Of a DNA stretch of 64,000 bases, positions 940-52,898 are shown one piece after another (position 1 is the stretch's first letter; every line of letters starts with the position of its first letter). The translations under genes were made by a program, and so were the position numbers. The notes beneath the pieces were generated by a model. It had not been told where the DNA came from. It made no database searches and worked only from the letters and a program-made list of their open reading frames with translations. Source of the DNA: Flaccisagitta enflata (Eukaryota). The stretch lies in assembly GCA_965153355.1 (NCBI GenBank), contig OZ231126.1, positions 48,546,001 through 48,610,000 on the forward strand. Reading direction: 5' to 3'.

Positions 940-7064
<6,125 letters not shown>

Positions 7065-27287: not shown

Positions 27288-29935
27288 ATGAGTACGACAA
27301 TGACGACGACGTCGGTGGGGTCGCCGTTTTTCCCATCTCTTCGAGGTCTCATCGACCATGGAAACCCTAGCGAAGATTGGTCACTCCTTGACGAAATTCT
27401 GTTTGAGACGTCGCAACGGGTAGCAAGGGATGAAGAGCAGCAACAAATAGCCAACAGTCCAGCACTAGTGGCAATACCGACGCTGACCAGCCTAGGGATA
27501 GGCTCCGGCTCCAACAGGTCGTTATCAGGTTGCTCAGTCATGTCGTAAGCGACACCCCATCCATTATGATTATTCAGGTTTATGGGGCAGCGGCCCAGGA
27601 AGGGCTGAGGACCTATTATCCCATGATGATTAATTCTTTGAATTTCCACAGGACTGGTTGAGGTTTGAGATGTTAGCTTTTAGGTCCGAGGCCTGATTCA
27701 AGCTTTAAAAGGCTTGATCGAGTTTTGAGAAGCCTGATTTTAGGTATGAAAGGCCTCAGATCTATAATTAGGCCTCTCAGAATCTCAGGCTTGTCCACGA
27801 GGCCGGGAGGGGGGGTAACATGAAGAAACAAAATGCCCCACCTGGAATTATAGGTCAACGGCTCCTCCGGGCTGCTGCCCAAAAAGAGCATGAAATTGTG
27901 CATGTGCGGAAGAGCTAAATGTCCGGAACTTAAGTTTATTACTACCTTTCCCTCGAAGCGGTAATCTAAAAAGTTTCTTATCGATAGAATACGAAGTACA
28001 GTCGCTCCTTTGGCGTCAGACATCGAAACCGAAACGGTGAAAGAGGGAATCAAATACTTCTTGTACCTAGACAGCCTCGTCGAAGCCGAGATTGGGTAAA
28101 GAATATGCCAACGAACGCCTCAATACATGCCATACCACATAAAGATCGTGGTACTGTGGTTTGGGAGCTTAGAAAAATAATATTAAGCAAAGTTAACCAA
28201 GTCACTTGCAATCCTATTACATAAAGTAGGAGCGGACACTACCAAGCTACCACAGCCTAGGAAATAACCCAATTTGATGACGGCTTATATAGCTAATATT
28301 GTGACTGGAAAAGAGCTCGATTGAGCAACGATGCGCGATGCGTCTCGTGTCTGCGTTTATTGACTGGCACTTATCAAGTGAGACATAGAAAGGAAGTAGA
28401 TATAAAGGAAGTAGAGGGACAGATTTGGGTGCTTCACATAGCAAAAGTTGCTTATTTCTTTTCATCCTCTTTACCTAATGTGGAGTGGGCAATTTTAGGA
28501 CCCTTACCATTTTTTTTTATCAAAAATTGTTCATCTTCCGTTTTTTAGAAAATTGTTTTTGAGAGCCTAATTTGTATATTGTAGTGGGATAAAAAAGTAT
28601 GCTGATCTTCTCTGAATTAGCTTTTATAAACTTCTGCTCTTTAAAGAATTGTTAACCTGCTTTTTCACAAGCTCTTACGTACTTATGCTCTGATATTTTG
28701 ATTCATTTTCACAAAAATCGTGGTTTTCTAAAACTAACAATTATTCCTTTTGTAACAAAACTACACAGGATTTTGCTGGATTCTGGGAAATCTGAGTAAA
28801 CTTTAAGGCCAAAACAAAAACAGAAGATGAAGGAATTTTGAGAAAAGGAAAATGGTCATCTTCATGATTTTTTTCACTCCATATTGGGATAGCGGGAAGA
28901 GAAAAAAATCAAATTTTTTGCTATGCGAAGCACGCAAGGGACAGATGGATGGACGGATAGACGGGCGGACAGGAATAAGTTGGCTCAGTCCCATTTCGCT
29001 TAACAACCGTTACAAGTCGAGCCTGATGTTTTAATCACAAAAATACACGATAATCAGAAGTAAGTCTGATTTAATGATTTTCGTAAACACTTAGTTCCAG
29101 TAACCAGGATAAAGGTGTCGAACAAGACGGTGACCTCGGACGCGAAGACGCATTATCTGACGGCAATCAATCGGATGCGACGATCGCAGCGGAGATGGAC
29201 GATTCTGGTATCAGCTTGGCATTCGTCGACGAAGTAAAGGGCAAAGCGGAGGAGGGGCACTTGGGAATCAACGATGAAGGCGATAACGAAGAAAATGCCG
29301 AAGCAACGAGAGACGAGGCCTTTCATTTTTATACGGTTGGGGATGACGTTGATCCCGTGGCCGTGGACAGCGTCTTGGCAATCTCGACAAGCGTAATGGA
29401 CACCGTAAAAGGAGGATATGAATTGAACCGCAACGACAACAACAACGTCGACACCGGGGGGCGCATGAAGGAAAAGCTGGAGGATCCAAACGACAAATCA
29501 GGCAGTTTCGTTACAAGACATGACTCGGCGCAGATCGAGACGGAAATGGCAAAATTTCTTCCATCCAAAGAAAGTGAAAATTGGAAAGAAATCATCGACG
29601 AAGGCAACGCAAATTTGACGGGGGAGTCTGAATGGGGAAAAGAATCTAGCCAAGGAATAGATGAAGACAATAACGCCAATCGGTGAAACTTAGCTATTTC
29701 CGTCTCATTCATTGATCAATGCCGTCGTAAACACTCGTAAGAACCCGTCAAGTCAGGCGCAGAAACGAAATTATGGCATCTGAATAATAAGTGAATTTTT
29801 ATCCTTACTTGCAGAATTGAGATCGGCGCTGGCGAAGACGCGAAGCTGATCGCGACAGCATCTAACGTTTTGTTGACTGACGATCAGCAATCTCACGGCA
29901 ATCTACTGTGCTGCCTATGCAATTGGTCAGCATGA
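27288..29935 (+). CDS. Uncharacterised acidic, probably disordered protein (~357 aa) with Cys-rich C-terminus; exons 27288-27544, 27988-28095, 29095-29682, 29815-29935
   Basis: Four GC-richer blocks bounded by GT/AG join through three phase-2 introns into one open frame (1074 nt) ending ...HGNLLCCLCNWSA*. The ATG directly follows 'ttagcag', so an upstream exon is possible. No domain recognised. Confidence 0.65.
28425..28937. mobile_element. MITE with 9-bp TSD (Mutator-like by TSD length)
   Basis: TIR TTGGGTGCTTCACATAGCAAAA / TTTTGCTATGCGAAGCACGCAA; perfect 9-bp TSD GGGACAGAT. Confidence 0.8.
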
Positions 29936-32003: not shown

Positions 32004-34050
32004 TCACCAAGGGGGATTGGGACTAGGATTAAACTTGATCCAAAATGGAAGGAGGCAGTTACCCTCGTGAGCCACACAATCAGCGAGGGCGAAGAATGTC
32101 ACGAGGACGAACCACAAAAAGACGAACGACAGAAAGGCTGCGAGACACAAACAAGTGTAGAGACCACGGAGATGAGATCGTCCGGAGATAAGTGGGCGAG
32201 TAAAAGGGAGATCTGCGGTCGTTCAAAGAGAGAGGATGAAAACAAGTGACGCGAGGTCACAATATCGTTGCGGACGGGTGGGCAGTACGTTGATTGCTCC
32301 GCCTGATTTTGCGGAATCGTCCCTGTGCGACCTCTCCATAATGTGAAACTTAAGATTTCATTACGAACAAGCTTATATGCGCGGCATTCTAACTTGATGG
32401 GAACCCTTTTTGGTCACGTTCGCAATGACAATCCGTGTCTTTTGTTTTTAAGTGTTTTTAAGCAGGTAATGTTTTAGGGTTAGGGGTAGGGATGGGGTGG
32501 GTTTTAGGGTTAGGGATAGAGTAGGGATTAGGGATAGGGTGAGGGTTAGGTGTGGGTTTGGTTTTATATGTTTGAGCTCGAGTAAGCTTGAATTATAGAT
32601 TTGTCCTTGTGGGGAAAAACAAGTGCACCGGATTGAATTACCTAACATGACCCCTTTTTCAGGGTTGATTTGAAGTGAACAAAAGAAATTAAAGGAAAAT
32701 CTTAAGGGGCTCCTTAAGGGGATTCTTTCCAATAAATTTTTATGTATACTTTAGATGGGTCCTAAAAAAGGTTCCCATCAATCTACAGAAGGAACCATCA
32801 TAAGAGGTGTGGAAGTTGGGTGCTTCACATAGCAAAAGTTATGAGTATCCCTTCACCCTACTTGAGTAATGTGGAGAAGCAAAAATCATAAAGATGACCA
32901 TTTTTCTTTTTTCAAAATTCCTTCATCTTTCGTTTTTGTTTTAGCTCTAAAATTTTCACAGATTTTCCTGAATTCAGCAAAATCCTGTGTAATTTTGTTA
33001 CAAAAAGGGCAATTATTTGTTTAAGAAAATCATGATATATGTAAAAAATAAACTAAAATATAAACTATGAAAGAGCTCATGAAAAAGCAGATTAACAACT
33101 TTATCAAGAGTAAAAATTTATAATAGTTAATTCAAAAATATCAGCCTATTGTTTTATCCCACTGCATTATGCAAATTAGGTCCTCAAAAACAATTTTCTA
33201 AAAAATGGAAGATAAATGATTTTTGATAAAAAAAAAAATGGTAAGAGTCCTAAATTTAGCCACTCCATATTTGGTAAAGAGGGTGAAAAGAAGTAACCAA
33301 CTTTTGCTATGTGAAGCACCCAAGTGTGGAGGGTCCAAAAGTTATAGCCCCCCCCTACAGCCCAAGCTAATACTACTATTCTTTTACTTTAGGCAGCAGT
33401 TTATATCTTAGGTAAAAACAATTTTTTTCATCCGAGCTTTGTTTGAGATTACTCCCAGAATCACTACAATTGATTTTTTTATGCTAAAATTTGAGTATTT
33501 TCAAAACCCCCTCAAAAATAAGAAAAATTAAAGATTTAAAAAGGTTCAAAAATCGCCTTGATGAAAAAATTTTTATTCACCTGAAATATAAACCATTACC
33601 TTATTGAAAAATATAAGCAGTGGTGTGAGTGGGGTGCTATAATTTTGGTCCCTCCTCTTATAATGGTTCCTTCTGTATAAAGTTGCGCATAGGCTCATTT
33701 GACAAAAAATCATAAGGGTCACACTATGAAGAGGTCGCATGAGGACAATTCAGCAAAGTCAGGCGGAGCAACCAACGTGGTGGGCGGGGGCGTGTAACCT
33801 CCCCATTCCATACTCATCCACGATACACACAGACATTCGCAAATGTTGCAGCACAAATGCGATTTTCGCACTTTTCAACTCATTCATCGCCGACCAATGG
33901 ATGGACAGACGGACGGACAGACGGACGGACAGACGGACGGACAAAGCCTCTTATAGTTAAAGAGTAGCATGTCCGGAACATAACGTAAGATAGAAAAGAA
34001 ACTCGGTCGATCAGGCAGGTAATTTCAGCAAGAGAGAGAGAGAGAGAGAC

Positions 34051-34098
<48 letters not shown>

Positions 34099-37000
34099 AC
34101 ACACACACACAGACACACACACTTTGAACAAACTCACGTGTGCTCACACACGCACACACAGTCAGACACAGGAAGATAGAAAGGAAATAATGCCAGATAC
34201 AGGGCCACCCAAGCCGCTGACGGGCAGAGGTAAATCGCCCATTTATGCCTACCGACCGACCAACCGAGAGACAAAGGGGGGAAGAAAGGAAGAGGGCTGG
34301 GGAAATAAACGATCGCTCACCGATTATTCCATCCGTCTGGGAGTGACTGTCCTTTAATGGAAGTCGAGATTGATCCATCTTGGCAATTGGAGAGGGCAAT
34401 TCCAAAGAGGCATCGATGGACATGTCGACGGAACCACGCGCGGGCGATCCGGCATTGATGCCAGCTCGTTTCAACGGTGAACTGATCGATGACGCCGAAC
34501 CCGCGGCTTCCAACGCCGCCGTATCATCGAAGAACTCGACAAGCGGCTGGACGCCAGGGAAACCGCCTTCCGTACCGGTCATGGACAACTCTTCTCGGCC
34601 GTCTCTGCCTTTTCCATTGCTCAAGTCTACATATTCTTGGAAGAAAGCGGCGTCAGATCGGTTAGAACCTTTTGGCGACGATGCGGCCCCGTCCGAGGCT
34701 GCAGGGTCAATCAAGGGACTGAAAGGAGTTCAGATCAAGGATATGAGGGTGGGTACTGATTATTTAATGCCTTAGTGTTGTCTTTCGTCAATCGGTTTCC
34801 CTCGATGAAAAAGAAGAAAGAACAATTTCAGCATTGAATGCAGTGTCGAAGGTCATGGTTTTTTTTCACTCGCACAAGATCGAAATTTCAAGTTAGCCAA
34901 ACGTGGAAAATTTGGCATATTTAGAAATGGGACTTCGACCGCTCACGTTATTTATCGCCGGCTGAGCGACTCTGTAAGCGGCTGTGTCGGTAGGTAGGTA
35001 AGTATGTTATACGAAATTTTAGACGGCGCGAAATCGGCCAGCCCACCTGGATACTGCCCACCTGGATACTACCCCTGTCAACCTGTATCACTACCCCTGC
35101 CCACCCGCCAGCGATAGATATCAACATGGTATTGAGCCATTATGTTTGGCAATAGTTAAGCATTTTGAATACTGACCGACTTATTTTAGGATGATAACTG
35201 ATTACTGTATTTATTGCCTTTGGGTTAGATTGAGAAGAAATGTTTTTCAAATTCTGTTATATGGAAAACTAGGAGTGGTGCGCGTATAAACTAGTCAGTG
35301 AGGGTTCACAAGGCCCTCTTCCATTAATTTCAGTTTGGGTATAGTGAAGGATATCGTTCCACTTTTCATAACAAACCATTTCAATATGACAGAAATTGTT
35401 AAAACTTTCGAGCCAGAGCTAGACCTTTCTGTCCCGATTGACCCTCGCTTCCATGGAGTTTGTTTCCTCGTAGCGATTACTCCCGGCTTCGGTAAGTTGG
35501 CCCCGCTCTTGTTGTAATTCGATAGGTGACTGTCATTATTATTCTCGTCATCAGCGTCGCCATTGACCGAGGATTCGCAAGTCGAATAGCTAAATTTCTT
35601 CTCGCGATAGTTATTCCCAAAAGTTGTTAACCTACATCCAGAGAAGAAATAAAGAGGGCGTGTCCCTTGGTGGGTTTGTCCGTCCGTCACGTGAAAAACT
35701 TAGGTTAAAGCAAAATCGGCTGAGCATATCGAGCCCCTGCCCAGTCACATTACAGCCCCCGCCCACCTAGATACTACCCATGCCTACCTTCCTAACTACC
35801 CCTACCCACCCGCAAGCAACTACTTATAGGCCATTTATCCGATCTTGTTCAGTTACATACCACTTGCAGTTTGTTCCTTGTTCAGCTCAGGAAGGATCTA
35901 AACATATCAGCTTATTAGTTGCGGACACGCAACTCTATAAAATGCTTTGTCCGTCCATCTTTCAGTAGGTCATCCGTGATGATCAAGTCTTATAGTGAAA
36001 AAACGCGCATTTATGATGCTGCAGTTTTAATTGTCTGTGTGTGTAAGTAAGAATGTGATGAGGGAGGGTGTGGCATGACTGTTTGCCCCTGCCCAGTGCC
36101 CCTCCGCATCCGTCCCCAATAATATTGTGACCCCGCGTCACTTGTTAAATGCCCGTTAGAATACCTTTTCAACGTTTATCCGAGAACAAGCCAAAATTTC
36201 AACGCTAGCCATAAAACTAATCAAAAGGAAGGAATGAGTTACCTGCACATCCAAATCGGTTAGCGGACTTGGTGCATCAAACTGCAACAGCACCCTCACC
36301 TTTGCAATTCGTTGTTGACAAGAGGAGATTCGGGTGCCACATCTGTGCCGTAAAGCGACGCAATTCGAGACTTCGACTGACGCCTCTCTTTACTCTCATC
36401 TGACCACTTGACAGAGAGTTCGGTAGATTCATCTGTATGCCGACTTCTGTCATCTGGTTTGCTCGAATCAATTTCGGACACGTCAAGATGTCGACAGTCT
36501 GAAGATTCTCCGTTGCCATTGACGCAGCTGGTTGAATTACTGGTGCCGCCACTGCCGCTGAAGGAGCTGAAGCGAAGCCTTTGTCTGACCAACGAAGTGC
36601 TAGTATCCGCACCCTCGAGTGAGGGTACAGATGCTAGACCGGGTAAATGCAGGCAAAAATTAATGTGAAAACCACAATAAGTGAATCAAGACTGACCATA
36701 GCGTCAATAATTCTGTCCTTTTTCTGGTTCTTACTTAAACGCCTTTGCTTGAGAAAACTACCTTGACATGAGAAAAATTGATTGAAATTGGTGTTGTTTG
36801 GAAAGCTCATCGAAAGATTTTTCATTTGAGTTGTGTCTGGAATATTTCGCTAAAACGGTTTGAAAGTTAAAGCATTCAAACAGAGAATGTAAAAAACCCA
36901 AAATTTTGAAAAAACCTGAAAAAACCCGGTTTTTTGAAAAAACCCGTTTTTTTTAAAAAAACCCGGGTTTTATCAGGGTTTTTTTTAAAAGTTACTTGTG

Positions 37001-40000
37001 CTACTGTAAAGACATTCTAAACTGGGATATATTTATGTTCAATAAAGTAATCATAAAATAGGGATACTTAAATAATGTAATAGGCAAACTCATGTATGAA
37101 TAATATCTACTACTACCAGCCATATTTTCTTGATCTTATTGAATCAAAGTGTAACTGGAGAAAAACAAAGACAATGCAATCATGTAAAAAACAAACTTGG
37201 TGCCAAGTATAGAGCTGATGAATTGTTTCAATTGGTGAATTTCACAGATTGTATTAAGCTAGTAGGATGAGAATTCTTTAGAAACATTAAGTGTCCTATC
37301 AGGTTGAACTAAACATTGAAGGAATTGAGCCACATGTATGAGTCCTGGTTGCCAAAACTTTGCTGAGGTCCCAATCCTGAGCATGAGAAAAGAGACATCA
37401 TCAGTTTGATCTATAAAATGTCAGAATCAGTCAATTCATCAACAATTTGCTGATTAAGTAATAAGAAATGAATAGATTAAATTGAGAGAAACTTTATTTT
37501 ATGAAGATAAATGTTTTTAAGCAGCACACAATCATAAAAATACATTTTTAGTCGCGTAAACGCGACTCTAGAAGCCGCTATGTCGGTCGGTCGGTCGGTC
37601 CGTAACAAAAACAAATTAAAGCCTTTTTATCTATCTTTATGGTCATTTTAATCATTTAAAATGTAAAATAAATCATTTAAAAATAATTCCAGTCATTTTA
37701 AGTCACTTTAGTCACCTCTAACTTGTTTTAGTATTTTGCATCCTGTAGGTCAGAAAAGTTGTCTGGGACTATAATTGTTGTTACATCAAGTGATCACTGC
37801 CTGTGCTGTATTCCGTGGTCGCTGCCTTCTAATTGAGAGCAGGCATACCTGGATTATGAAGATAACTATTATGAAGATATGAAAGATAAGTAGTATGAAG
37901 ATAGGTAAATTTAGACAGATATAAATATAAGCATTGTTAGGTAACTATTATTTATCATGTAGTTAGTTTAATTACCTTAATTACATTTATTACCCTAATT
38001 ACCACGCGACTAAGGTTTGTTGACCTTGTTTTTGAAAAAACCCGGGTTTTTTTCAAATTTCTTTGAAAAAGCCCAATAAAACCCGGTAATAAAACCCGGG
38101 TTTTTTCAAGCAGGTTTTATTGCCTTACATTCCCTGCATTCAAAGTAGTTTAGTTTAAGTTTTGATAAGCCGATAACGGCCAGATTTATTGACGCTATAG
38201 TTACCTTGAAAAGTATCAAAATCAAATTCTTTTTGCTTAGGTCTGAGTATAGCGATTGATAATCATTAATTTTAATCTATCTTTTAGTGAGATAAAAGTG
38301 AAATTAACAATTATCCCGTAGTGCCTTACCAGTAGACGGGCTGAGTTTCACACGATTCCTCGTGGTTTCATCGATTAAGTCCTTCACAAAATCTCTGATG
38401 AGGCGAAACGCGGAGACGCAATGACGGAACGTGTCATCTAAACCGGTATTTCCGTTTGGAAGCGCCGAAGGTGAATGCGCGGAGTCATTTGCCGCCACAA
38501 CGTCCTCAGTAGGCGCCTCAGAAGCCTCAGCGGTGGTGAGATTCTCGACATCCTCCGCGTGTTTGGAGGCGTCCCGATGCGCAGACGATTCGAGAGCGTC
38601 GTCAAAGTCAAGGTCAAGAAGACGAGACAGATCAGATTGAGTTGAAATTTTGTGGTCGTAATTATCGTTATTGTTGTTGCGTAAGTCCGCGATGACGTTG
38701 GCAAGCAGATCCACTCCACGCACAAGACTGAAGTACTTCCGCTCTAGGGACTTCTTGCGTCTTAGTATTACGATGAAACGGTTCTGTATAAAGTCGAAAT
38801 GAGAAATGATAAAATAAAAATATAGACAAAAAATGTTTTTTTTTGGCTTAATCAAGCGTGTCTGGCTATGTAACGGAGTAAATTGAACGAGTTGGCACCT
38901 TGATATCGTCGATTTTGACGTCCGCGATCTCGCTGAAAATAGAGTTAACGAAAAACGAGGGACTGTCTTCGACTCCAGTGGTGTCATCCCCGGTCAAGTT
39001 GCCGGGAAACTCCTCCGTCAGATCGCCGGCCGAAACGTCCGTCCGATCGATCTCGTAAACCCAATCCGCCATGTCGGTCAGGTTTCGTTTAAAGGCGCGC
39101 TTCTCTATCGTGCTTTGGTTATCGCCGCTGATGTGACTGTCGTTACGACTGTCGTCTTCGACTTCGTCATGATGAATTTCGCCGGCGGTTAGAGAAAGTC
39201 TGCCGGAGGAAAAACACTGAAGGTGAAGGGGAAAGGGGATTAGGCAATTACAACGATGCAACGGATTTAAAGCTGAATCAAAACATTTTCGCAATAAGCG
39301 TGATGAGATTCATGCCCGAAAGACTTTTGTTTCTGCAAGAATTAGGGCGAGCCTTTTGTTTTATCAGGACGCACTTCATAAATCCGAAAAAAAGTTGGAA
39401 GACGTTGCTTAAAGCCGATGGTAGATTTTGAGTTCGTAATTAAGTGTATTTACCTAAATTTTTACCGGAGTTTCTCAGTAATAGTTGGTTTATTCCGCAA
39501 AACTTTCCCCTGATGAAAAAGAGGCTCGTCCGTCCCTCAGTTGGAACAGTCTTACAATTCAAACGGGAAGTTGTACATTATACAGGCTAGGGAAGTGAAA
39601 ACGATCTCCCAAAGCAGTCTCTCGTTTTATTACAATCATCATTGCTTCATGTGGCCATCATCGTGTCATCACCACACCTGGTTTTCTCCAGTCCAAGCAA
39701 CGGAACGTCGGAGCTGGGATCCTCACGGAGACTCCTTCCAACAACTCCACTCAGTTCCTCATGGATGGAATTCCTCATAGACTGCGTGCCAACGCACTCC
39801 GCGGTCGACGAGCCTCTTCGGTCAAACACGACGTCGGCGATGGGCGATGCCACGATACTGCAATCGGCCGACGTCATGCCAATGGAAAAGTCATCATCCA
39901 GCGTAGACAGACCCTCGAAAACGTTCATATGATAACCAAACATGAGCAAATTTCCAACCTCCCAGATTCTCAACAAGAATCAAAAGAACCGATGCCCAGC

Positions 40001-42279
40001 TCGAAAGATCTGCAGTCATTTTCGCGCTTTTTAATGCCTTAGTATTTTACAATGTTTGACATATGATCAGCATTCAGCAACTAAGATTATTTTCTATAAT
40101 TCCAAAAATTTGATTCTGATCTATCCAGGGGTGAATAAAGTTGAGCATTCCCCCCTCCCCCGAGGGGGGGGGGGGAATAAAATCAAAGGGTTCAAAGATG
40201 GGAAGAAAATCAAAGAGGAGAAAGAAAGAAAAAACAAAATTTTTAAAGATTCTACACTTTTGACAGTTCTGAAAGATAGTATTTGACTCTTGCAACACTA
40301 TTTTACACTACTCTGACCATATTTATACTCTATGGGGTAGAAAATCAAACAATTTTTCAGCCCGGCGGTGAAGAAAACCAAAGACCAGGGGGGGGGGGGG
40401 AAAGAAATCAAAGGCCGCTCAACTTTACACACCCCTGGATCTATCATCCCAATTAAGTATCAGATAATGTAATATGTTAATAGCTCAACGTTTGGTCATC
40501 ATGTGATTACAAGAGCAAAGTCGCCGTCATCATCCTCGCCTCCTCTTCCTCGCCTCGTTCCGCAACGCTTCGAATCGTCGAAATACTCATCCAACTCCTT
40601 TGAGAGCGACTCGAGACTCTTGAGAGACGTCAGCTCCATCTTGACGTCGATGAGATCCGCTTCCACACTCGCCTTTTCGCCGACGACGCGACTTAGCTCC
40701 GTCTCCGTCGATTCCAATTTTAAGCGCAGTTCCTCCAAAACGTCTTCGCGTTCCAACGCGTCTGTTCGGCACCGCAGGAAAAAATGTTAACACAACAAAT
40801 TACGTCGAAAACGGCAAGAGAGTAAAAAACATTATTCGAGAAAAAGCCCTAGATTTCATACATCGGTTCTGACTTGCTATAGATCTCCCGGAATAACCCT
40901 AGATATTCCTCAACCTTGAACTTAACACTTCAAAGTAAGCAAAATCATTTTGCCAAACCCCTCATCCTTCAAATTTGCACTTCACCTTTATTCATCTGTT
41001 TCCTGGCGGCTTCCATCTCGGCAATTTCGTCTTCCATCGATTTGCATTCTGACCGCAAATCCTCGAATTCTTCCTTCAACTGTTTCAGCTCTTTTTTTAG
41101 TCCCGTTGCCGTGGCCTCCCATTTCGCCTTCTTCGCCGCTTCCTCGTCACGCTCCTCCTCCGCAACTTTCAAATCCTCCGCTAACATGACCACTTTACGT
41201 TTTGATTCTTCGAATTTGTCCAGATTTTGCAGCAGCGATTGGTTTTTCTCACTTAGTTGCTTCTTCTCCGAGAGCAGGGTTTGGATCAAGTCATCAGCTT
41301 GCTCCAATTGACTGTTACGAGGAATGATCAATTGGTGTGGATGAGGGTGGAGGGGGGAGGGGGGATATACAAGGGAAGGAAATCGAAAATCTTGGGAAAT
41401 CATTTTAGTGTCAGTAACCCGAGCACAAAGCGCCAGTAAATCTGTGAGTTCAAACGCGGGATACACTTTTTTTTATAGGAACGTCATTTTTTTCGAAAGC
41501 TTTATGTTCTTATTTTCAAGGCCAAATGAAGCCTTCAACATTCTTAGAGCATTCTTAACTTCAAATACTATATAGAATATAAGAAAACTTATAATATACT
41601 ATCACTCAATTATACTTAATATATTTCTATTAAATACTGTTAAAACAAATACCAATCATTAAAGTTTAGGGATATTTTCAAGATACTTATTTAAAAATTG
41701 TAGAATATTATCTAAATTATACTAAAATTCAAGTGTTTTCTTAATGTTTTATAAATATCATCGTAAGCAAAATTTTTTTTTCAAGATTTGAACCCTTTAT
41801 ATGTCCTTTGAATATTCTTAATTTTGGGGCTATTTGAAGCCTAGACATTCTTATAAACTAGGTTCTTATAAAAAAAAAAAAAAAAGAGTATTTCCTGCTC
41901 CTCCTTTGTCCATCTGTCCTCCCCCACCCCGACCATTAGGCCCAAATCGCATACACTGGAATCTAGGGTCAATGCAATTTAAGACCATCTTAAGCTTTGG
42001 AGACTTACCCTTTATGGGCAGTGGCCCCAAAGGGAACAAGGTCTGGTAGAACACACTTTCGTTCATTCATTTGTCTGTTTGTCTGTCTGTTTATTCATCC
42101 CCTGTGTTCTACAGGATTTCATCCCCTTCAGAGCCACTACCCTACTTCCTCTCATCCCAACTAATAATCATGCAAAGCAGGGCAACGGGAATCGTTGACC
42201 ACATATCGCCCTTGGGCGACCTGTTAGTATTGCAACTATAAGAGGCTTTGTCCTTCGGTTCGCCGGTCTGTGATGATCT

Positions 42280-42333
<54 letters not shown>

Positions 42334-45014
42334 AGTGAGTGAGTGAGTGAGTGAGTGAGTGAGTGAGTGAGTGAGTGAGTGTGTGTGTAATTTTTGTTAC
42401 TTTAATTTCATTTCTCAAATTTCATTTTTTGTATGTAACTTAATTAAAAGATACTTAATTCCTTGAACATACTCGGCTGTCAAAAACAATAACTCGTGAA
42501 ATCATGCATGAAGACATCACGATGAAGTGTTTTAACCCAGACTATTGGATTCAGCAGAAAGTTTTAACTATACTAGAATAAGAACAGCTCAGTCAGACAA
42601 TCATTTCAGATTTTATAGCCATTTAAAGTTTTTAAGGACAATTGTCTCAAAATAATTTAGGACAATTGTCCTTAAAAACTTTAAATGGCCATAAAATCTG
42701 AAAAAAATTGTCTGACTGAGCTGTTCTTGTAGTCTAGGATAGGTAAAATTTTCTGCTGAATCCAATGGTGTAGGTAAAAACACTCCATGTTGACGTCTTC
42801 ATGCATTTTGACAGCCAAATATGTTCAAGGAATTAAGTTTCTTTTAGTAATGTTAGATACAAGAAAAGAAGTTTGGGAAATGAAATTAAATTGACAAAAA
42901 TTAATCCTCCAGTTTCAGCCGGGTTTGCTCGGAAGGTACTGTATGAGGGTTGTTTTTTGGACAGCGGTCCCGGGAGGGACAGAGACCAAACCACATATGA
43001 ATCCTCCAAGACCACAAACATGCTCTTGACCTATCAGTAGCAGGGCAACGGGTATCGCTCACCACAACTCATTTTGATCTTCATCATGGTTTGAGTAAGG
43101 AAGTACTCCAGATCTAGAATACCATATTTCAGCAAAGAAAATGAGGAGACACCTTTTCAAATTTCCGTTATCCTCTTGCAACGAGTTGATGGCGTGATCC
43201 CTGGCGGCGATTTCGCCCGCGACGCCGCTTCTACCGCCTGCGAAGTTGGCGTCTTCGTCTTCATCATCGTCGATGCCTCCCAAACCCGCGGCTACGAGCG
43301 AGGTGTTGCCGCTGCCCGAGCAGAAGTAAGGAGAATTTACCACAGACTCGTTCAAAACGCCACTACGGCCCAAGATGGAAGAGTTTAATTGTGGACTGCA
43401 AGTCAAATAAAAGAAAAAACAACTAATGAACAGTCACATCTCACCGAAACCAATTTCTTGCGTTTCATTGACGTTAATTTACTGGGCCTATTCAGCGGTG
43501 TACCCAATACACGAGACAGGATAGAAACAAACCTGGTCAAGATACTCTGAGTTAGATCGTGTATGGATTTCCGCCTTTGCTCATCTTTTTTGCGGCACGC
43601 GTCCGTCGTGGTTCGAGTTTTGGACGAATCTTCTTGGATGTCGTTGGCCCAAAGCAGCGCCTCTTGACGAAATCGAGAAGCCTCTACTTCGCAGTCGACT
43701 CCTTTTGGGTCGAGACGACGCTACATAAGGAATCGAGAGGGAAATTAGGGAGAATAAAACGGGGAAAAATGCATATCCAAGGGAAAGAAGGGTGGAGCAG
43801 CGACATGTTAACTGATCAGAAAATAGGAAATCTCTGAGTCACAGCACAATTTATGACGGGTATTTTCAGCAGCAGCAACGTTGCAACAATAAAAGTGCTG
43901 CATTAAAACAACGATAAAACAAGGCAAAGTTAGGGCCAATCTGCGCGCTTCGATGACTAAGAATGAATGAATGACTGGGTAAATGAATGAGAATATACAT
44001 CCCGCTATAACGAACCCGTGAGAAACGGAAATCCGCCAAGAACAGATGAAATCTAAATTCTATCACATTTTGAATTTTATATTAGCATTAACAATAATCC
44101 AATGGCCGACTAAAACGAAGAAATTGCCTGTCTCATGGCGTCCGTTATTGCGGGGTTCAACGGCATGAGGGAAAACTAATGCAAGAAGAAGGAATCGGCC
44201 GTGTTTGGTAATTTAAACATTTGCGTGACCGACCGGCAGACCAACCAACCAACTGACGGACAGACACGACCTTTTGTAAATATGCGACGCACACAAAACA
44301 CCAAACCTGCAATGCGACTAATCCCTCGTAATTTTGCTCGTCAGCATTCGTAATGCCCGTGATATAATTGACAAGCTGCGAGACGCGAACGCGCCCGATG
44401 TCTCCCAAATCACAGGCCGCGAAAACCGCATCGAACAACGAGGCGTCAATCACGCCAGAATTGGCGGCGGGGGCTTGAGATGGGTGTGAGGGCGACGGTG
44501 TTTCGACCGTTTCAAGAGCGACGCCATCTCCGGCATTAGCTTGACTGCAATCGTCTGGGAAGACTGCATCAAAAACTTCCCGACGACCGGAGCTGTTGCT
44601 CCGACTTAACTGATGAGCTTCCACAGGCGCCGCCACTTCATGTCTTCCAACTTCATTGGTCACTCCTCCATCCCGCGAGAATCCTCGCATCGGATCCAGA
44701 TTGAAGCTTCTATCGAGACTCGAAGAGGACGAAGAAACGGAGCTAAAGTGAACGGAGGCGGAAGTTTCCTCCGTGAAACCGGATATGTTAATCAGCTTAC
44801 CAACGGGGAGGTGACTATCGGCGACCGGGAGGCTACCCTCACCACCAGCTCGTTGAAATGAGAGGGTAGAGTTAAAGGGGGCTGTCCGTAAAGCATCTCC
44901 ATCCGTACCGCCTTGGACAGGAGAAGTCGGTGAGGCAATAGACGAATTGTTCAAGTCAGAAATATCGGAGAGATTCAAAAGGTTACCTACCTTCACATTG
45001 TTCGTCGCTGTCAT
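32004..45014 (-). CDS. KASH5 (CCDC155)/LRMP-like outer nuclear membrane protein, ~1284 aa; exons in transcription order 45014-44307, 43720-43533, 43395-43153, 41311-40986, 40761-40511, 39913-39678, 39199-38899, 38783-38330, 36633-36300, 35631-35425, 34718-34321, 32212-32004
   Basis: Twelve exons join in frame (3855 nt). An EF-hand-like segment LFDAVFAACDLGDIGRVRVSQLVNYIT...LVALQ|RRLDPKGVDCEVEASRFRQEALLW resembles the KASH5/LRMP N-terminus. A coiled coil follows (exons 3-5), then a long low-complexity region. The last exon encodes a TM helix (LYTCLCLAAFLSFVFLWFVLVTFFAL) and luminal tail ADCVAHEGNCLLPFWIKFNPSPNPPW*. Confidence 0.8.
32786..33675. mobile_element. Tc1/mariner-like MITE interrupted by the 32816-33323 insertion
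   Basis: TA-CAGAAGGAACCATCATAAGAGG ... CCTCTTATAATGGTTCCTTCTG-TA. Confidence 0.75.
32816..33323. mobile_element. Second copy of the 9-bp-TSD MITE (inverted), nested in a TA-flanked MITE
   Basis: TIR TTGGGTGCTTCACATAGCAAAAG / CTTTTGCTATGTGAAGCACCCAA; TSD GTGTGGAAG/GTGTGGAGG. Confidence 0.8.
36881..38136. mobile_element. Non-autonomous hAT-like element, same family as 11933-13111 in opposite orientation (nested HINE-like copy at about 37545-38030)
   Basis: TIR CAGAGAATGTAA / TTACATTCCCTG; perfect 8-bp TSD CATTCAAA; subterminal AAAAACCCGG repeats. Confidence 0.85.
40126..40437. mobile_element. hAT-like MITE (partial related copy at about 10430-10643)
   Basis: TIR CAGGGGTGAATAAAGTTGAGC / GCTCAACTTTACACACCCCTG; perfect 8-bp TSD GATCTATC. 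Confidence 0.85.
42455..42836. repeat. ~380-bp palindromic element bounded by TTAA
   Basis: TTAATTCCTTGAACATA...GGCTGTCAAAA / TTTTGACAGCC...TATGTTCAAGGAATTAA, with a centre near 42650. Confidence 0.8.
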
Positions 45015-45754
45015 GGTCAATCTAATGCTTAAGGATGAAAAAATGAATAACAGATCTATGGCATCCGTAATATCTAATGATCATTTCAGAAAAATTCACT
45101 TTCACAATCAAAACAAACATGTGTCAAACTGTTAACAGTTACTTGATTAACCTGAAACAATCGGTTGTGTCATATTACAAAAGGTTTTTTGATCGCTTCA
45201 TCAACATCAGGGGGCATGGGGGGACAAATTCTAAGAAACTTAGCGTTTTTATTTTTTTAAATTTCATACGTCTTCCGTTTTTTTAGCAACGAAAACTATA
45301 TTCGCTGTTTATATATTCCTCCCTCGTTTACGTCATCGATGACTTCGTTTTCGAACGTCACCTCCAGTGAATGATCATTGATCGTTTTACGGGTTCATCT
45401 TGGTGCTCAAATATGTTTCGAAATGTTTCCGCTTAAGCTAGTGACAAGAGCAATGCAAGTTGTGTATCAGCGAATTGATACAAGAACGCATAGGCTGTAA
45501 ATGCTCCTGCATTAACAACGCTGCGTTATGCAAATTAAGTATTCAAACAGAAAATTCCGAAGACGTCGCCCGCGAACTTGTGAAGCCTGTTCGTACACGT
45601 TATACGATGAATTGAGCTAAATCGAGTCATGCTTAATATGACGACGGTCAAATGAACCTGTACGAATTGAGGCGCCTCTCTGGAATGGTACAAAGCAGGA
45701 TGAACACGAAGTGAGGGGAAGATGATCGCAGACAACAGTTACATGTTGTTTGAA

Positions 45755-45809
<55 letters not shown>

Positions 45810-46026
45810 GAGGAGAATAAAATCAGTTCGAAAGGCCTTATTTATGGGCTCATCGCCCGGTAATTGTTATATAAACTTGGGCTTATCGCCTGGTGATTGT
45901 TAAATAAACTTTGGATTATTTGACAACTCGATCTTCAATCGATTGACACAGAGTTTTGTAAAAAATGAAACCGGTGATAGTCCTTATGAGAGATGGACCA
46001 CTAAAACTGTAATTGAAAGTCACCTA

Positions 46027-46880
46027 CAGTACGATGGGAGCTACGAAAACCTAGACTGGAGGATGGTTTTTAGGTAATTTAATTCTATTTATATCATAAA
46101 TTATTTAAGATTTAGGTTAATTAAAGGTTAATTAAAGGTATATTTAGTGAATGCATTTGCGTCTCTTAAACTCCAATTTTTTACTTGATCTTAAGACTTC
46201 ATTTTTAGTCGCGTGCACGCGACTCTACAACCCGCTTTGTCGGTCCGTCCGTCTGTCCGTCCGTCCGTCCGTCGGTCCGTCCATCCGTCCGTCCGTCACA
46301 CTTTACTTTTTTGTACTATAACGTCAACTCTTAGGTCATTTTAAGTCATTTCAAGTCATTTATAGTTATTCTAAGTCATTTTAGGTTATTCTAAGTCATT
46401 GAAAGTCATTCTAAGTCACTCTTTGTCTGTAAGTCTCGCACGCAACTTATAGGTGTTGACCTTGTTTAAGTTTTAACCTATTTTATTCGATCGGCCAAAA
46501 CATTCTATGTGATTTTTTTAAAAATCCACCTAATTGGATCATTTCTAAAGGTTTTACGGCTCAGTAAGCTAAAGTTATGCAAATCAATTTTTGGGCAAAA
46601 CTTAAAATGGCCATAAAACCTGTAAAAATAAACTGATTAAGCCAATTTTTTTTCAAAACTATATAAAATTTTTCATCTGATCTATTAAAATAAGTTAGAA
46701 CTTTCAAAAATGAAATCTTGATGAGGTCAAGTCGCAAGTTAAAGTTTAAGAGATGCAAAATTTTCACTGAATATAACAACCTTTAATTATTGTAAATCTC
46801 AAATATTATAAAATATAAATAAAATTAAGATACTTAAAATCTATCCACCAGTCTAGGTCGTAATTGCTCCCATCGTACTG
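46027..46880. mobile_element. TA-flanked palindromic MITE with a family C HINE-like insertion at 46203-46466
   Basis: TA-CAGTACGATGGGAGC...CTAGACTGG / CCAGTCTAGG...GCTCCCATCGTACTG-TA; an uninterrupted sister copy lies at 54254-54810. Confidence 0.8.
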
Positions 46881-47386
46881 TAGTTATATAGTGACACCCT
46901 CACATAAAATCTAAGGTTCTCTTACGCGATCACGATCTCACTCAAATCCCCTACTGCGCCGAAGCTACTCAAAACAAGGCTGGATGCACGGCTACTGAAG
47001 TTGTGGGCAGGGGCAGTGATGAAATATGCTAACTCAAGCATTTGAACAGGAGCAGTAACGCAAAATGCCAAAAACGCTAAAAAAGCTAACAGCAGCCAAC
47101 AGACCAACCGACCAACATAGCGGGTTGTAGTCACGAGCACGCGACTAAAGGTTTCATCGTTCAGATCTCGAAAACTTACGATTTTTATTCGCGTACTACA
47201 CGACTCTACACCCCGCTTTGTCCGTCAGTCGGTCTGTTGGTTGGTTGGTTGGTTGGTTGGTTTGTTCTCAAAGAAAAAAGAGGATGGGGCGCTTTTTGGA
47301 GGGGGGCGCTAAATGGAAAAAATACGGTACGTATGGATTAGACACCTCCGGCAGCCGGACTCTTTAAGTTCGAGAAAATGACAAGT

Positions 47387-47492
<106 letters not shown>

Positions 47493-48533
47493 CGAAGCAA
47501 AACGCGCTTTAAATTGAGATCAAGAAAACATCAATTATTGCAAAATTAGGCTAAAAATATGAAGAGGAGTCAATATTCCGGGTAATTTTTCGAATTTTAA
47601 TCCGGAATTTTTTTAAATAGAAAGTCAGTCTCAATTCTGCATTAATCCATAAAACGTATCTCAACATATTTCGGCAAACCAAACTTTTCCCAACATAATC
47701 AGGGCATATTTCGGTATATCGAAGTTGTTGCTTTTGCAAAATATCAATTCCAACGCCGTTTGTCTTGTTTACGACGCACTGAAATTAAAGCAAGAGGAGT
47801 TTATCCAGAGGACAAAAATACCACTCACTTTACTATTTTTGCTTGTGTGGTTTTTTTTTTACTTAAACTTACTTAAACTTACATGAGAAAACCGATCTGT
47901 TACTGCCAAATGACAAAAATGCAAAAAGTTGAAGGAAATTCGATTTTGATGAGACTAAAAAGTGAAAAAAATACTGACAATTGTTTCAGTAACTGCTCAC
48001 TGAAAATTTCCAATTTGCATCAAAAATCAAAATATCATTAGAATAAGAACAAAGCGCCCTCAGTTTGTGTTTTAGGAATCGCGCTATGTTCTTGTTTTGT
48101 TGATATTTTGATTTTCTCTGCAAATTTAAAATTTTCAATGAGCCATGGTACATTGACAAAATAAGTTTTTTATTGTATTTCATATATTTTTTTCAGCTGT
48201 AAAACAAAGGATTGTATATTAAGACTTGCATATGCATGTCAATTCATGCAAAATATGGCTATTGACAGTTTACTTGAAAACATAAGGACAAAAATTATCT
48301 TTAAATTTCATTTTATAAACTTCATGACTTATCTAGCTCGGGTAGCAAATTCTATGGTAATTTTCAGTGCGTCTTACGGTCTTTATTGACTTTTTACTGA
48401 TTTTTTTCACTTAAACAGGCGTGTATATTGTTGAGTAGTGGGAAGGGGGGGAAATGAAATGACAGGGTTTGGATATGGGAAAAAAATCAAAATCTTGAAA
48501 AAAAAATTTAAAACCCACCCCTAACCCTAATTT

Positions 48534-48715
48534 AACAAGGCCGGATACACGGCTACCTCAGTCGCGTGTGGGTGGGCAGTGGCCATATCTGAGGTCAGTA
48601 GACCATTTGGGCAGGAGCAATGAGGTCAAAGAAAAAAAAAAAATAAAACGTGACCGACCAACCGACGGACGGACCGACAAAGCGGGTTGTAGAGTCGCGT
48701 GCACGCGACTAAAAA
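48534..48715 (-). mobile_element. HINE/DINE-1-like element, family B (further copies in + orientation at about 49090-49279 and 49544-49728)
   Basis: Same termini, hairpins and microsatellite as 596-774. Confidence 0.65.
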
Positions 48716-50479
48716 GTCTGAGAAACGCAAGACTGCATACGACCATTAATTTATACCATAGACGAAAGTCAAAATTCGATGTACCAAAATATGCCCGGAT
48801 AATCAAAATTGCTTTATCTCGTAACATGATGAAATATGGTTATATATGAATGAATGCGGAATTGGGACTGAGCGTTGATGCTTGATGGGATCATAAAGAT
48901 TTCACGTCGTCAAGGTAATCATAGAACTGCTGGCACACGAGCCTTTAGCCTTGCGGCTACCCTGCTAAAATGAAATATTCAAAGACAAAAATTTTGCACG
49001 CTCATTGGCGGATCACTGGCACCGCTACTTATGATTAAAACTATCTGCATATCAGGAAATTTCCTCCTCAAAACCAGAAATAGATTTACTTTTTTTTAGC
49101 CGCGTGCACACGACTTAACACCTCGCTTTGTCCGTCCGTCCATCGGTCGGTTGGTCACATTTTTTTTTTATGTTTTTTATTCTTGGACCTTACTGCTCTT
49201 GCCCAAATGGTCTAGTGATCTCAAATATGGCCCCTACCCACCCGCACGCAACTTAAGTAGCCATTTATCCGGCCTTGTTCATGTAATTTCTTACACCTTG
49301 TCCTAGAAATTCTGCAAATTCTAAAAAAAAATCAACTAGAAATTTTCTGTGTTATTATCTGCCTCTCGCACATCTATAAGTGGTGGTGTCTGTTTGTCGG
49401 TCGGTCAGTTGGTCACAAAATTCTAAAATTGCTCACAATGACTGATCCTAACATCTTTCTTCATAGTAACTAACTCTTATGCCTACCTAATTTTCATTCA
49501 TTCATTCATCTATTCATTCAGTCAAACCATTCATTCACACAGTTTTAGTCGGGTGCATGCAACTCTACAACCCGTTTTGTCCGTCCGTTGGTCAGTTGGT
49601 TACATTTTACTTTTTTTTACAATTTTATTTCTTTGACCTCACTGCTCCTGCCCAAATTGTCTAATGACCTCAAATATTGCCCCTACTCATCCACACGTGA
49701 CTTCGGTAGCCGTGTATCCGGTCTTGTTGATCAGTGAGGCGCACATATTGGTCAAAACTGTGCCATGAATTGTTTTGAATAAACAAGTAACAAGCGACTC
49801 GCGAATACGTGCGCCGGGCCCTGTGGATCGTCGAGAAAATGCCAGTCCAACTATACTAATGAAGCGGCATCCTCTTATCGGTCTGTTTTGGCTCATTAAA
49901 CGTTATGGGTTTTTTTTTTGGGGGGGGGGGGGGGGAAGGGAAGTAAAATTATGAGATTCAACTTTTTAAAATAGCTGGAAATCAGGTTTTTAATTCTGAT
50001 TTATAGTAATCTAAGGAACTACTATCATATTTCTTTGATAATATGACTTTTAAATTTCATAAAAAAATAACTTTTTTAAAATAAGAAATATCAAATATTA
50101 AATTATAAAGGATTAATATCTTAGGAGTTATGAATTTTAAAATCACTTTGTTCAAATGTTGCACGCTTATCAATTAAAAAACAAGGCCAAGTAGGCCAAT
50201 AAGGTGCGACGTGTGGATCGTCGAACGAATGCGTTACCCGACCGACAGACAGACAGACCGACCGACGGACACAGCCAGTTATAGAGGTGCACCTAAAAAT
50301 CAAAACTAAGAATTGACAAAAAATGATCAAAAAATGAATCAAAACAAATAAGAAAATAACCACATTGCGGAACTGATTATTTCATTTAGTTAAGTCATAA
50401 TTCAATTTTAGAAAGTTGGGTCATGATTTTTTAGTATACAGTAGATCTCGTCTAGACTTGAGATAACGGGGGCAAGCAT

Positions 50480-50955
50480 TATAGAGAAATAAATGAAGCT
50501 TAGGGAGTGATATTTGAAACATAGACTAATAATGAGGTGCTTAATTGCCCATGATAGCTGGTTGCCATGGAAACGCATTTCTATGTATTTTCGCTAAAAT
50601 ATCAATATTTTGAGAAATTTTTTGAAGGAATATTTCTTAGAATCAGATTTGCTACAACTTTCCCACAGTATGTTCTGTAAGAATGTCGCTCGTTTAGCGG
50701 TTGCTAGAGGTTGTCACACATGGATACACTCCCTAGCAACCACCAAACAAGCGATATTCTTACAGAACATACTGTGGAAAAGTTGTAGCAAATTGATTTT
50801 AAGCAATGTTCCCTAAAAAAATCTCTCAAAATATTGATATTTTAGTGAGAATACATAGAAATGTGTTTCCATGGCAACCAGCTATCATGGGGAATTAAGC
50901 ATCCTTTGATTAGTCTACGATCCAAATATTGCTCCCCTACCTTCATTTGTTTTTC
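50480..50955. repeat. ~480-bp palindromic element
   Basis: CCCATGATAGCTGGTTGCCATGGAAAC / GTTTCCATGGCAACCAGCTATCATGGG arms, with a centre near 50720. Confidence 0.8.
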
Positions 50956-50981
50956 CACAGGGATCTGTTTTCTTTCATCGA

Positions 50982-51065
<84 letters not shown>

Positions 51066-51070
51066 ACACA

Positions 51071-51173
<103 letters not shown>

Positions 51174-52898
51174 CCGCGCGCGCAAGCAATCAAAGTCTGG
51201 GAACATTACAATGATACTGCAATGCGCAATCATCCTCGTTTTTTGTCCCTCCCTAGAGAGCCGCCTAGATTCTTACCGATATGTCGGAGAGTTGTCTTAT
51301 TAACCACGCATTAACTTTATTTAACCCTATTTGCCATATCACGTGTACAAACGGACTCATGCTCTGGGCGCAGCGTCTTTTGGAAAATATCGCTCAAATG
51401 CCTAATTTGCATGATGCAGCGGCATTATCTCCGCAATCGTGACAGCGTAGTATTTCGTAAATCGTTACGCTGATACAAAACTTACATTACTCTTGTTACT
51501 AGCTTTAGCGAAAACATTATAAAATGCATTTGAGCACCAGCATAAACTCATAAATTTATGAATGTTCATACGCTGGTGGTGATGTTCGAAACCGAAGTCG
51601 AGCTGACGTAAACGAGGGAAGAATATATAAGCAGGGAAAACAGTTTTTGTTGCTAAAAAAACGGAAGATGGACGAAATTCAAAAAAACAAAAACGGTAAG
51701 TGTCTTAGAATTCGTCCCCCTATTTCCCCTGATGTTGATGAAGCGATCTAAAGACCTTTTACATAGTGACACACCCGACTGAAACAATCACATTTATTTC
51801 TTGTAGAAGATATCTTAAAGGTTAATAAGCACAAAACACAAAAAGAAAACTAGTGCTTTTAATTTTTTTAAAAAATAAAAAAAATTTAACTCTATAAAAA
51901 ATTGAAATGATGCAGTTAAAACATTGTAAAGCATTGTTTCAGGGATCAGAAGTTTTCCGCAATGCTTGTTTTGTGCCCAAATCCTAGAAACCAGATGAAA
52001 GGCTCTCACGAACACTCATTTGTTTGACTAGGAACCTTGATTATAGGAACATTGAGGCTCAGCTGAGGAAAAAAAACAGTAACATTGCCAGCCAAAAACT
52101 AGGGGATAAGGGGAATACAAGAACTTCAGAACTTTATTAACTCAAGATTAATTAAGGTTTGTTGTTATAATAGTTATCATAAGTGAAACTTAGCAGTATC
52201 AATGATTATCAATGATGGATTTCATTCAAAACTGCATTTTCAGTATAATTCGATTTGTTTAAAATAAATATTTTTATCAATATTTCTAATCTTGTTTCAA
52301 TTGAAAATCAGAGATAGATTACATAAAAATTCTAATATAAACTAGCTATAAAAAAGAAATAATATCATAACGGTCGTAACGATTTAAGCCTCTAATTTCA
52401 AAACAAGAACACCGAGCCTCAGAAAAAAAATTGCATGTTCTTTTAAAGACAAATGAGTAAACACATGACTTCGTCTCCGACTTTTTTCCAAACAATACTT
52501 CTGATGATACGAAATCAGCGGACAGTTATTTCTGCCCCTGCCCCTGCCAAGCTTCAAGCGATTACTTACTAGTCGTGTATACGACCATTATATATCAGTG
52601 GGGCGGTTTCAGTACATTCTGCAAGAAATTCCAGATACCGCTATCTTATACCATTCAGAAAAATGTAAATCAGTCGTGTAGCGTAGGTAAGTGAAACGGA
52701 CTGCCCGACTTACAAACCAACTTATAAAGTTGTACTGTCACATTCGTCACTATGCTACGGTCCAAGACCTCTAATTTCAAAACATTCTCGGTTCGAAAAA
52801 ATTGAGAGAGTCCAAAGGCTCAATGTATAAATGGCTTGACTCAATGATACGACAGTGCATTACGTCGCCAGCATAGACTGAGACAAAAGCGAATCAAA

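What the first reader, a model, noticed from the sequence alone, without database searches (positions are those of the whole stretch)
32004..45014. Invertebrate KASH5/LRMP-like LINC-complex protein, with its KASH exon missed by the ORF track
Seen: 12 in-phase exons give EF-hand-like + coiled coil + long disordered linker + TM + ~26-aa luminal tail ending PNPPW*. The terminal exon frame is absent from the ORF track. Established: vertebrate KASH5 is the meiotic dynein adaptor with an EF-hand + coiled coil + KASH layout, and LRMP is related. Inference: this is a divergent member from a non-vertebrate genome. It is much longer than KASH5, has a ~190-aa N-terminal extension, and has no MRVI1/LRMP-type coiled-coil motif that I could recognise. 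It could be a nucleus-to-dynein tether in meiosis or pronuclear congression.
Basis: partly seen in the sequence, partly recalled or inferred. Interest (0 to 1): 0.75.

Follow-up and report, generated by a model that had tools for sequence, protein, structure and literature searches.

The report
Probable invertebrate KASH5-like dynein adaptor
A real, spliced gene of a marine invertebrate is built like the vertebrate protein that lets the dynein motor pull on the nucleus in meiosis, which would place that design outside vertebrates, but its nuclear-envelope anchor is unusual and unproven.

Summary
The gene is real: 12 minus-strand exons with GT-AG introns give one 1284-aa frame. Marine RNA contigs show 9 of 11 joints, including the one to the terminal exon.

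Layout: 189-aa extension, EF-hand pair, ~190-aa coiled coil, ~680-aa acidic linker, one membrane helix, 26-aa tail ending NPPW.

For KASH5 likeness: the first EF-hand hits only Pfam EF-hand_9 (E 6e-4, half domain, below cut-off) and has KASH5's Asp at X and Gln at -Z. Coil length matches KASH5.

Against: the tail has no Pfam KASH hit and fails the PPPX pattern, though it keeps the Cys at -23. No homologue was retrieved. Germline expression is untested.

There is no MRVI1 core here; a separate MRVI1 gene lies on another contig.

Best reading (0.6): a KASH5/Fue-type outer-nuclear-membrane dynein adaptor. It works like KASH5; family membership is probable, not shown. If orthologous, the KASH5 layout without LRMP's coil exists outside vertebrates, against the proposed vertebrate-only split.

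The parts
44307..45014 (-). Exon 1: start codon, 189-aa Ser-rich extension, first EF-hand
   Evidence: joint to E2 seen in X1 and X2; an acceptor-like AG lies 7 nt upstream of the ATG, so a further 5' exon is not excluded
44376..44411 (-). EF-hand 1 loop, D202 (X) to Q213 (-Z), degenerate for calcium
   Evidence: EF-hand_9 E 5.9e-4, 20.7 bits, profile 2-34 of 66; loop read-out; KASH5 pattern from PMC10071310
43533..43720 (-). Exon 2: putative second EF-hand (X = D240)
   Evidence: no Pfam hit on its own, so assigned by spacing only
43153..43395 (-). Exon 3: flexible linker and start of the coiled coil
   Evidence: E3-E4 joint in X2 record 11
40580..43214 (-). Coiled coil, about aa 360-549, across exons 3-5
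   Evidence: heptad runs 360-416 and 430-525, Pro-free 322-595; many weak coil families incl. KASH_CCD at E 0.14, rank 20 of 43
40986..41311 (-). Exon 4 (coiled coil)
40511..40761 (-). Exon 5 (end of coil)
   Evidence: the RNA joint has 2 letters between, read as a donor at 40511 with one base difference
39678..39913 (-). Exon 6; holds candidate Spindly motif IHEEL (39752-39766)
   Evidence: motif count not above chance under the published consensus
38899..39199 (-). Exon 7; holds candidate Spindly motif IFSEI (38926-38940)
   Evidence: the E6-E7 joint was not among the RNA rows shown
38330..38783 (-). Exon 8: short second helical run (aa 741-773 spans E7-E8), not an MRVI1 core
36300..36633 (-). 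Exon 9, disordered linker
35425..35631 (-). Exon 10, disordered linker
34321..34718 (-). Exon 11, disordered linker
32004..32212 (-). Exon 12: membrane helix (about 32085-32165), 26-aa luminal tail (32007-32084), stop
   Evidence: joint 34321|32212 in X1; hydropathy
32076..32078 (-). Cys at -23 from the C-terminus, the same place as in nesprin-type KASH tails
   Evidence: Cys at -23 in 3 of 5 distinct classical tails of this genome

Best explanation
A KASH5/Fue-type tail-anchored dynein activating adaptor of the outer nuclear membrane. Shown: gene, transcript joints, domain order, single C-terminal membrane helix. Inferred: the calcium-independent EF-hand pair grips the FF helix of dynein light intermediate chain; the ~190-aa dimeric coil lies along dynactin; a Spindly-type motif after the coil meets the pointed end; the ~680-aa linker is a flexible tether; the divergent tail binds a SUN trimer in the perinuclear space. 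Most likely use, by analogy only: meiotic chromosome movement and/or pronuclear congression (about 0.6 given the rest).
For: EF-hand_9 is the only Pfam family hit by the 53-aa EF segment at E up to 10; the Atlas also returns EF-hand clusters, a lead only. Loop 1 has Asp at X and Gln at -Z, as reported for KASH5 (PMC10071310 section 11). X-to-X spacing is 38 against KASH5's 37 (D44, D81). Coil ~190 aa against KASH5's ~190 (PMC3787381). The tail meets the positional KASH criteria, directly after the membrane helix and 9-40 aa long (PMC4050730), with Cys at -23 and an aromatic at -8; the loop before the terminal prolines is known to vary in length (bioRxiv 2020.06.19.161265). Two-proline ends also occur in this genome's L013 and L015 tails and in 2 of 3 invertebrate MRVI1-protein tails. 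Partners exist in the genome: two SUN1/2-type genes and a light intermediate chain with the FF helix. No paralogue was found, and the other 7 of 7 EF-hand_9 matches looked like calmodulin/centrin or another EF protein.
Against: No Pfam KASH hit for the tail, and the genome-wide KASH search did not list it among 51 matches while 6 other loci passed the cut-off. NPPW fails the animal pattern [PATHQL]PP[QTVFILM] at both ends. Tail similarity to 8 reference tails was not above shuffles (best p 0.07). EF-hand_9 score is 20.7 against a cut-off of 37, on half the domain, and calmodulins score higher on that profile. Exon 2 alone hits nothing. KASH_CCD at E 0.14 is no better than generic coils. Spindly consensus JxxE-phi occurs 2 times after the coil against 1.35 expected (p 0.40). 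No QxxH/Y motif. Cys at -23 is absent from mammalian KASH5 and LRMP. No homologue was retrieved. MAJIN and TERB2 searches gave only low-complexity hits. No tissue or stage data.
Confidence: 0.6

Rival explanations
1. A KASH5-related dynein adaptor whose tail no longer binds SUN, acting as a tail-anchored tether on ER or another organelle.
For: The tail fails PPPX, Pfam KASH and tail-to-tail similarity, while this genome keeps at least 6 canonical KASH tails.
Against: Tail length, terminal PP, Cys at -23 and an aromatic at -8 are all kept; a 26-aa luminal tail is not needed for plain tail anchoring (inference).
Confidence: 0.2
2. Convergence: an EF-hand adaptor of another lineage (FIP3, ninein or CRACR2 type) that gained a membrane anchor and KASH-like tail; it works like KASH5 but is not its orthologue.
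For: No homologue was found. FIP3 and ninein also have degenerate EF-hands. Exon 4 hits Rab11-FIP3 (E 0.011) better than KASH_CCD (E 0.14). C. elegans uses an unrelated Hook protein for the same job.
Against: EF-hand_9 is the only family hit; Gln at -Z, loop spacing and coil length all match KASH5.
Confidence: 0.13
3. A membrane-anchored scaffold with no dynein role; the EF-hand likeness is incidental.
For: The single-sequence fold of the 53-aa half domain gave two helices without an EF loop geometry; motif statistics are weak.
Against: Pfam and Atlas both read the segment as an EF-hand; a half domain folded alone is a poor test.
Confidence: 0.07

Closest known systems
Mammalian KASH5 (CCDC155)
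   Same: Order EF-hand pair, ~190-aa coil, linker, membrane helix, short Pro-ended tail; degenerate EF loop 1 with Gln at -Z; no MRVI1 core (PMC3787381, PMC10071310, PMC9242646; passages read).
   Different: About twice as long (1284 aa against a 63-64 kD protein); 189-aa extension; ~100-aa EF-to-coil linker; ~680-aa post-coil linker; tail ends NPPW and has Cys at -23, which KASH5 lacks.
Zebrafish Fue/Lrmp
   Same: KASH5-like N-terminal module on a long tail-anchored protein; Fue drives pronuclear congression (PMC3787381, PMC3777164; passages read).
   Different: Fue also carries the LRMP part; this protein has no MRVI1 core, which lies in a separate gene at G000:C2 35.61-35.65 Mb.
Mammalian LRMP/JAW1 and invertebrate MRVI1-domain proteins (Pecten, Owenia, Tachypleus)
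   Same: C-terminal membrane helix with a short, non-canonical Pro-ended tail.
   Different: They have the MRVI1 core and showed no EF-hand_9 match; this protein is the reverse.
Nesprin-type KASH proteins
   Same: Tail length and Cys at -23.
   Different: Lacks P-11, L-9, Y-7 and PPPX, which this genome's classical tails mostly keep.
EF-hand dynein adaptors FIP3, ninein, CRACR2A; C. elegans ZYG-12
   Same: LIC-binding module followed by a long coil; FIP3 also has a long loop between EF-hands and coil; ZYG-12 has the same nuclear-envelope job.
   Different: The first three are not described as transmembrane (KASH5 is called the first such adaptor); ZYG-12 uses a Hook domain.

Membership tests
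KASH proteins | Single C-terminal membrane helix followed by a 9-40 aa luminal tail | tested here: met
   criteria from PMC4050730
KASH proteins | Terminal PPPX or [PATHQL]PP[QTVFILM] | tested here: not met
   ends NPPW; L013 (over the KASH cut-off) and L015 of this genome also fail the pattern
KASH proteins | Pfam KASH (PF10541) match | tested here: not met
KASH proteins | Cys at -23 and hydrophobic anchors near -7/-9 | tested here: inconclusive
   Cys -23 present; anchors shifted by one (F-8, I-10); no Pro at -11
KASH proteins | Binds SUN trimers; SUN-dependent nuclear-envelope location | not testable with these tools
KASH5/Fue | EF-hand_9-type degenerate EF-hand pair | tested here: inconclusive
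   sole Pfam hit, E 5.9e-4, 20.7 bits against cut-off 37, half domain only; Asp X and Gln -Z met
KASH5/Fue | ~190-aa coiled coil after the EF-hands | tested here: met
   about aa 360-549 by a simple heptad score
KASH5/Fue | KASH_CCD (PF14662) sequence match | tested here: inconclusive
   E 0.14 on exon 4 alone; locus not among 29 genome matches; the spliced coil was not scanned
KASH5/Fue | Orthology by reciprocal search or tree | not testable with these tools
   no KASH5/Fue sequence or homologue was retrieved
KASH5/Fue | Meiotic or maternal expression | not testable with these tools
   only mixed marine RNA contigs held the gene
LRMP/IRAG (MRVI1) | MRVI1 coiled-coil core | tested here: not met
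Dynein activating adaptors | Spindly motif JxxE-phi after the coil | tested here: inconclusive
   2 candidates in fitting places, 1.35 expected, p 0.40; a post hoc Ser-led pattern gave 3 against 0.15
Dynein activating adaptors | Binds LIC helix 1 and activates motility | not testable with these tools
   LIC with the FF helix is present in the genome; binding untested

The most novel reading that the evidence does not exclude
This is a true KASH5 orthologue outside vertebrates, with the KASH5 module and the LRMP module already on separate genes, and it binds SUN through a non-PPPX tail, perhaps paired with the divergent SUN paralogue L025. The EF-hand meiotic dynein tether would then be an old animal trait like TERB1-TERB2-MAJIN, and the KASH5/LRMP split either predates vertebrates or happened twice.
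Probability: 0.4. Interest if true: 0.68.

Novelty: new variant of a known kind. Interest (0 to 1): 0.48.

Why it matters
The reviews read list KASH5 and LRMP as vertebrate KASH proteins (PMC3777164, PMC13522668; passages). Horn et al. suggested the two genes arose from a fish-type fue/lrmp gene by duplication and loss of opposite ends (PMC3787381). The telomere adaptors are pan-metazoan (PMC7227075), but which KASH protein pulls meiotic chromosomes and pronuclei in invertebrates other than nematodes did not complete in the passages I read. A KASH5-type gene here, with a separate MRVI1 gene, names a candidate and makes the duplication model testable. It would also widen the set of C-termini that KASH screens should accept. 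Limit: from recall, not from any call, automated databases already label some invertebrate proteins LRMP-like or CCDC155-like, so the family's presence in invertebrates may be known though undescribed.

Tried and rejected
Homologue searches with no result: exon 1 aa 170-236 among longer proteins (0 of 101 candidates); exon 4 among longer proteins (0 of 1538); exon 1 in metagenome contigs (0 of 573 pattern matches); tail and EF half against PDB sequences. These are weak negatives, as only single exons were used.

Atlas on exon 4 gave generic coils with low recognition. NCBIfam gave only SMC-like coils.

A by-eye idea that aa 750-790 is a decayed MRVI1 core was rejected: no profile match from 29 of 33 hits (4 dropped as repeats or other families), shuffle p 0.7-1.0, hhalign probability 0.06.

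The idea that the tail follows an LRMP register was not supported by alignment scores.

The tail and any EF-hand of the C2 MRVI1 gene were not found in 200 kb flanking its two exons; the 44 kb between them was read only in part, so its full layout is open.

Folding the 53-aa half EF-hand alone was uninformative; no fold search was run on it.

Run X3 laid only on repeats and is no evidence. The scan's earlier findings returned nothing.

Paper searches for an invertebrate KASH5 listed none describing one. The library lacks most subscription papers, including Lindeman and Pelegri 2012, which I did not see. Supplements were not read; alignments in figures or supplements could hold invertebrate orthologues.
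Full report
Observation. Reading the minus strand gave twelve exons with GT-AG introns that splice to 3855 nt and 1284 aa without an internal stop. Exons are richer in GC than introns, 0.52 against 0.38. Two marine RNA runs hold the gene as assembled contigs. Laying them showed 8 of 11 joints in the joint table and a ninth, E3-E4, in the contig table. E2-E3 and E6-E7 were not among the rows printed. That contig ends before the tail codons, and no listed piece spans the gene, so the full chain is pieced together from overlaps. The five X1 contigs checked are 97-99% like the window, and 6 of 10 printed exonic differences are silent. The third run laid only on repeats.

Anatomy. Residues 1-189 are a Ser-rich extension. 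About 190-262 form a putative EF-hand pair split by intron 1. A ~100-aa linker leads to a coiled coil at about 360-549 (a simple heptad score of my own). Then come ~680 acidic, Ser-rich residues, one hydrophobic segment and a 26-aa tail ending NPPW. In the whole window only this one of 615 frames has a membrane-like segment before a PPx end. The gene appears single-copy.

EF-hand. The 53-aa segment in exon 1 hits one Pfam family at E up to 10, EF-hand_9 (E 5.9e-4; 20.7 bits on profile positions 2-34 of 66; cut-off 37). Calmodulins score higher on that profile, so the hit alone is not diagnostic. More telling, loop 1 has Asp at X and Gln at -Z, the pattern Garner et al. report for KASH5 (PMC10071310, section 11 read), and the two X positions lie 38 residues apart against 37 in KASH5. 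The coil is as long as KASH5's (~190 aa; PMC3787381, passages). Exon 2 alone hits nothing, and KASH_CCD scores no better than generic coils on exon 4. From recall only, the exon 2 start and the E3-E4 junction resemble the matching parts of KASH5; no call tested that.

Tail. It meets the positional rules for a KASH candidate but fails the animal end pattern at both flanks (PMC4050730, passages). It has no Pfam KASH hit. The genome-wide KASH search found 6 loci over the cut-off and did not list this one among 51 matches. It keeps Cys at -23, as do 3 of 5 distinct classical tails here, but has F-8 and I-10 where they have Y-7 and L-9. Structures show that the loop between the aromatic anchor and the prolines tolerates different lengths (bioRxiv 2020.06.19.161265, passages), so a one-residue shift is plausible. 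Alignment scores against 8 reference tails were not above shuffles. Modelling with SUN was not available, so binding is open.

LRMP part. The spliced protein has no MRVI1 core. The genome has two consecutive MRVI1-core exons on contig C2. Their named relatives come from scallop, limpet, an annelid and horseshoe crabs; the named proteins scanned showed no EF-hand_9 match. So the KASH5-like and LRMP-like modules sit on different chromosomes here. I could not find the ends of the C2 gene, so it may have an EF-hand of its own.

Context. The organism is inferred to be a non-vertebrate animal: the named MRVI1 relatives checked are invertebrate, and no named SUN protein exceeds 49% identity to L025. 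The phylum was not determined. The genome encodes two SUN1/2-type proteins, one keeping and one lacking the Cys before the SETY motif, which I take from recall to be the KASH-bonding Cys. It also encodes a light intermediate chain with the FF helix. MAJIN and TERB2 were not found, a weak negative for such divergent, multi-exon genes.

Mechanism. The most likely working, by analogy with KASH5 (PMC9242646 and PMC10071310, passages): the EF pair binds the LIC helix without calcium, the dimeric coil scaffolds dynein-dynactin, a Spindly-type motif binds the pointed end, and the tail holds the complex on SUN in the nuclear envelope. Two JxxE-phi motifs lie where such motifs are expected, in a loop after the coil and at the start of a second helical run (bioRxiv 2026.04.25.720804, passages), but two is not above chance (p 0.40). 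All binding steps are inferred. The germline role has no direct support.

Comparison and novelty. It works like KASH5. It cannot be filed as a KASH protein yet, since two defining sequence tests failed, nor as LRMP, since the core is absent. KASH5 orthology is probable but untested, because no homologue came back. Seven paper searches aimed at this question listed no description of an invertebrate KASH5. I read passages of 14 papers, one full section among them, and no supplements, and the library is incomplete. Other papers consulted in passages and not cited above: PMC10827754, PMC7227075, PMC13522668, PMC6491811, PMC12650740, PMC4284225, PMC3777164, PMC13224763.

Verdict. A real gene and a new variant of a known kind. 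Interest 0.48: it offers a testable candidate for the meiotic dynein tether outside vertebrates and bears on the origin of KASH5 and LRMP, but the design itself is known and the key links are unproven.

Noticed in passing
L008-L013, L015 (G000:C4, C6, C7, C9): At least seven loci end in nesprin-type KASH tails, including two near-identical pairs (L008/L009, L010/L011) and several in long open frames of 900-2000 aa: a large KASH repertoire for an invertebrate.
   Followed up: partly
L025 (G000:C6:58.18 Mb): A divergent second SUN1/2-type gene lacking the Cys before SETY; its closest relatives are three unnamed transcripts at 57-59% identity that also lack it. Candidate specialised or germline SUN.
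   Followed up: partly
L016, L017 (G000:C2:35.61-35.65 Mb): Two consecutive MRVI1-core exons 44 kb apart; the rest of the gene was not located.
   Followed up: partly
window 32063 and 32137, minus strand: A donor-like site inside the luminal tail and an in-frame acceptor-like site before the core of the membrane helix; either could give an alternative C-terminus. Neither is among the RNA joints shown.
   Followed up: no
window 45021, minus strand: An acceptor-like AG with a pyrimidine tract 7 nt before the start codon, and no obvious coding exon by eye in 45100-58500: an upstream non-coding exon or trans-splicing is possible.
   Followed up: no
window 57204-57557 +: Exon with a thyroglobulin type-1 repeat (E 1.8e-10).
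   Followed up: no
window 3172-5192 +: Exon-like frames recalling an M20 peptidase (PM20D1-like; from recall); no Pfam hit at E 0.01.
   Followed up: no
window 29087-29686 +: A 199-aa acidic open frame with no Pfam hit, converging on the 3' end of this gene.
   Followed up: no
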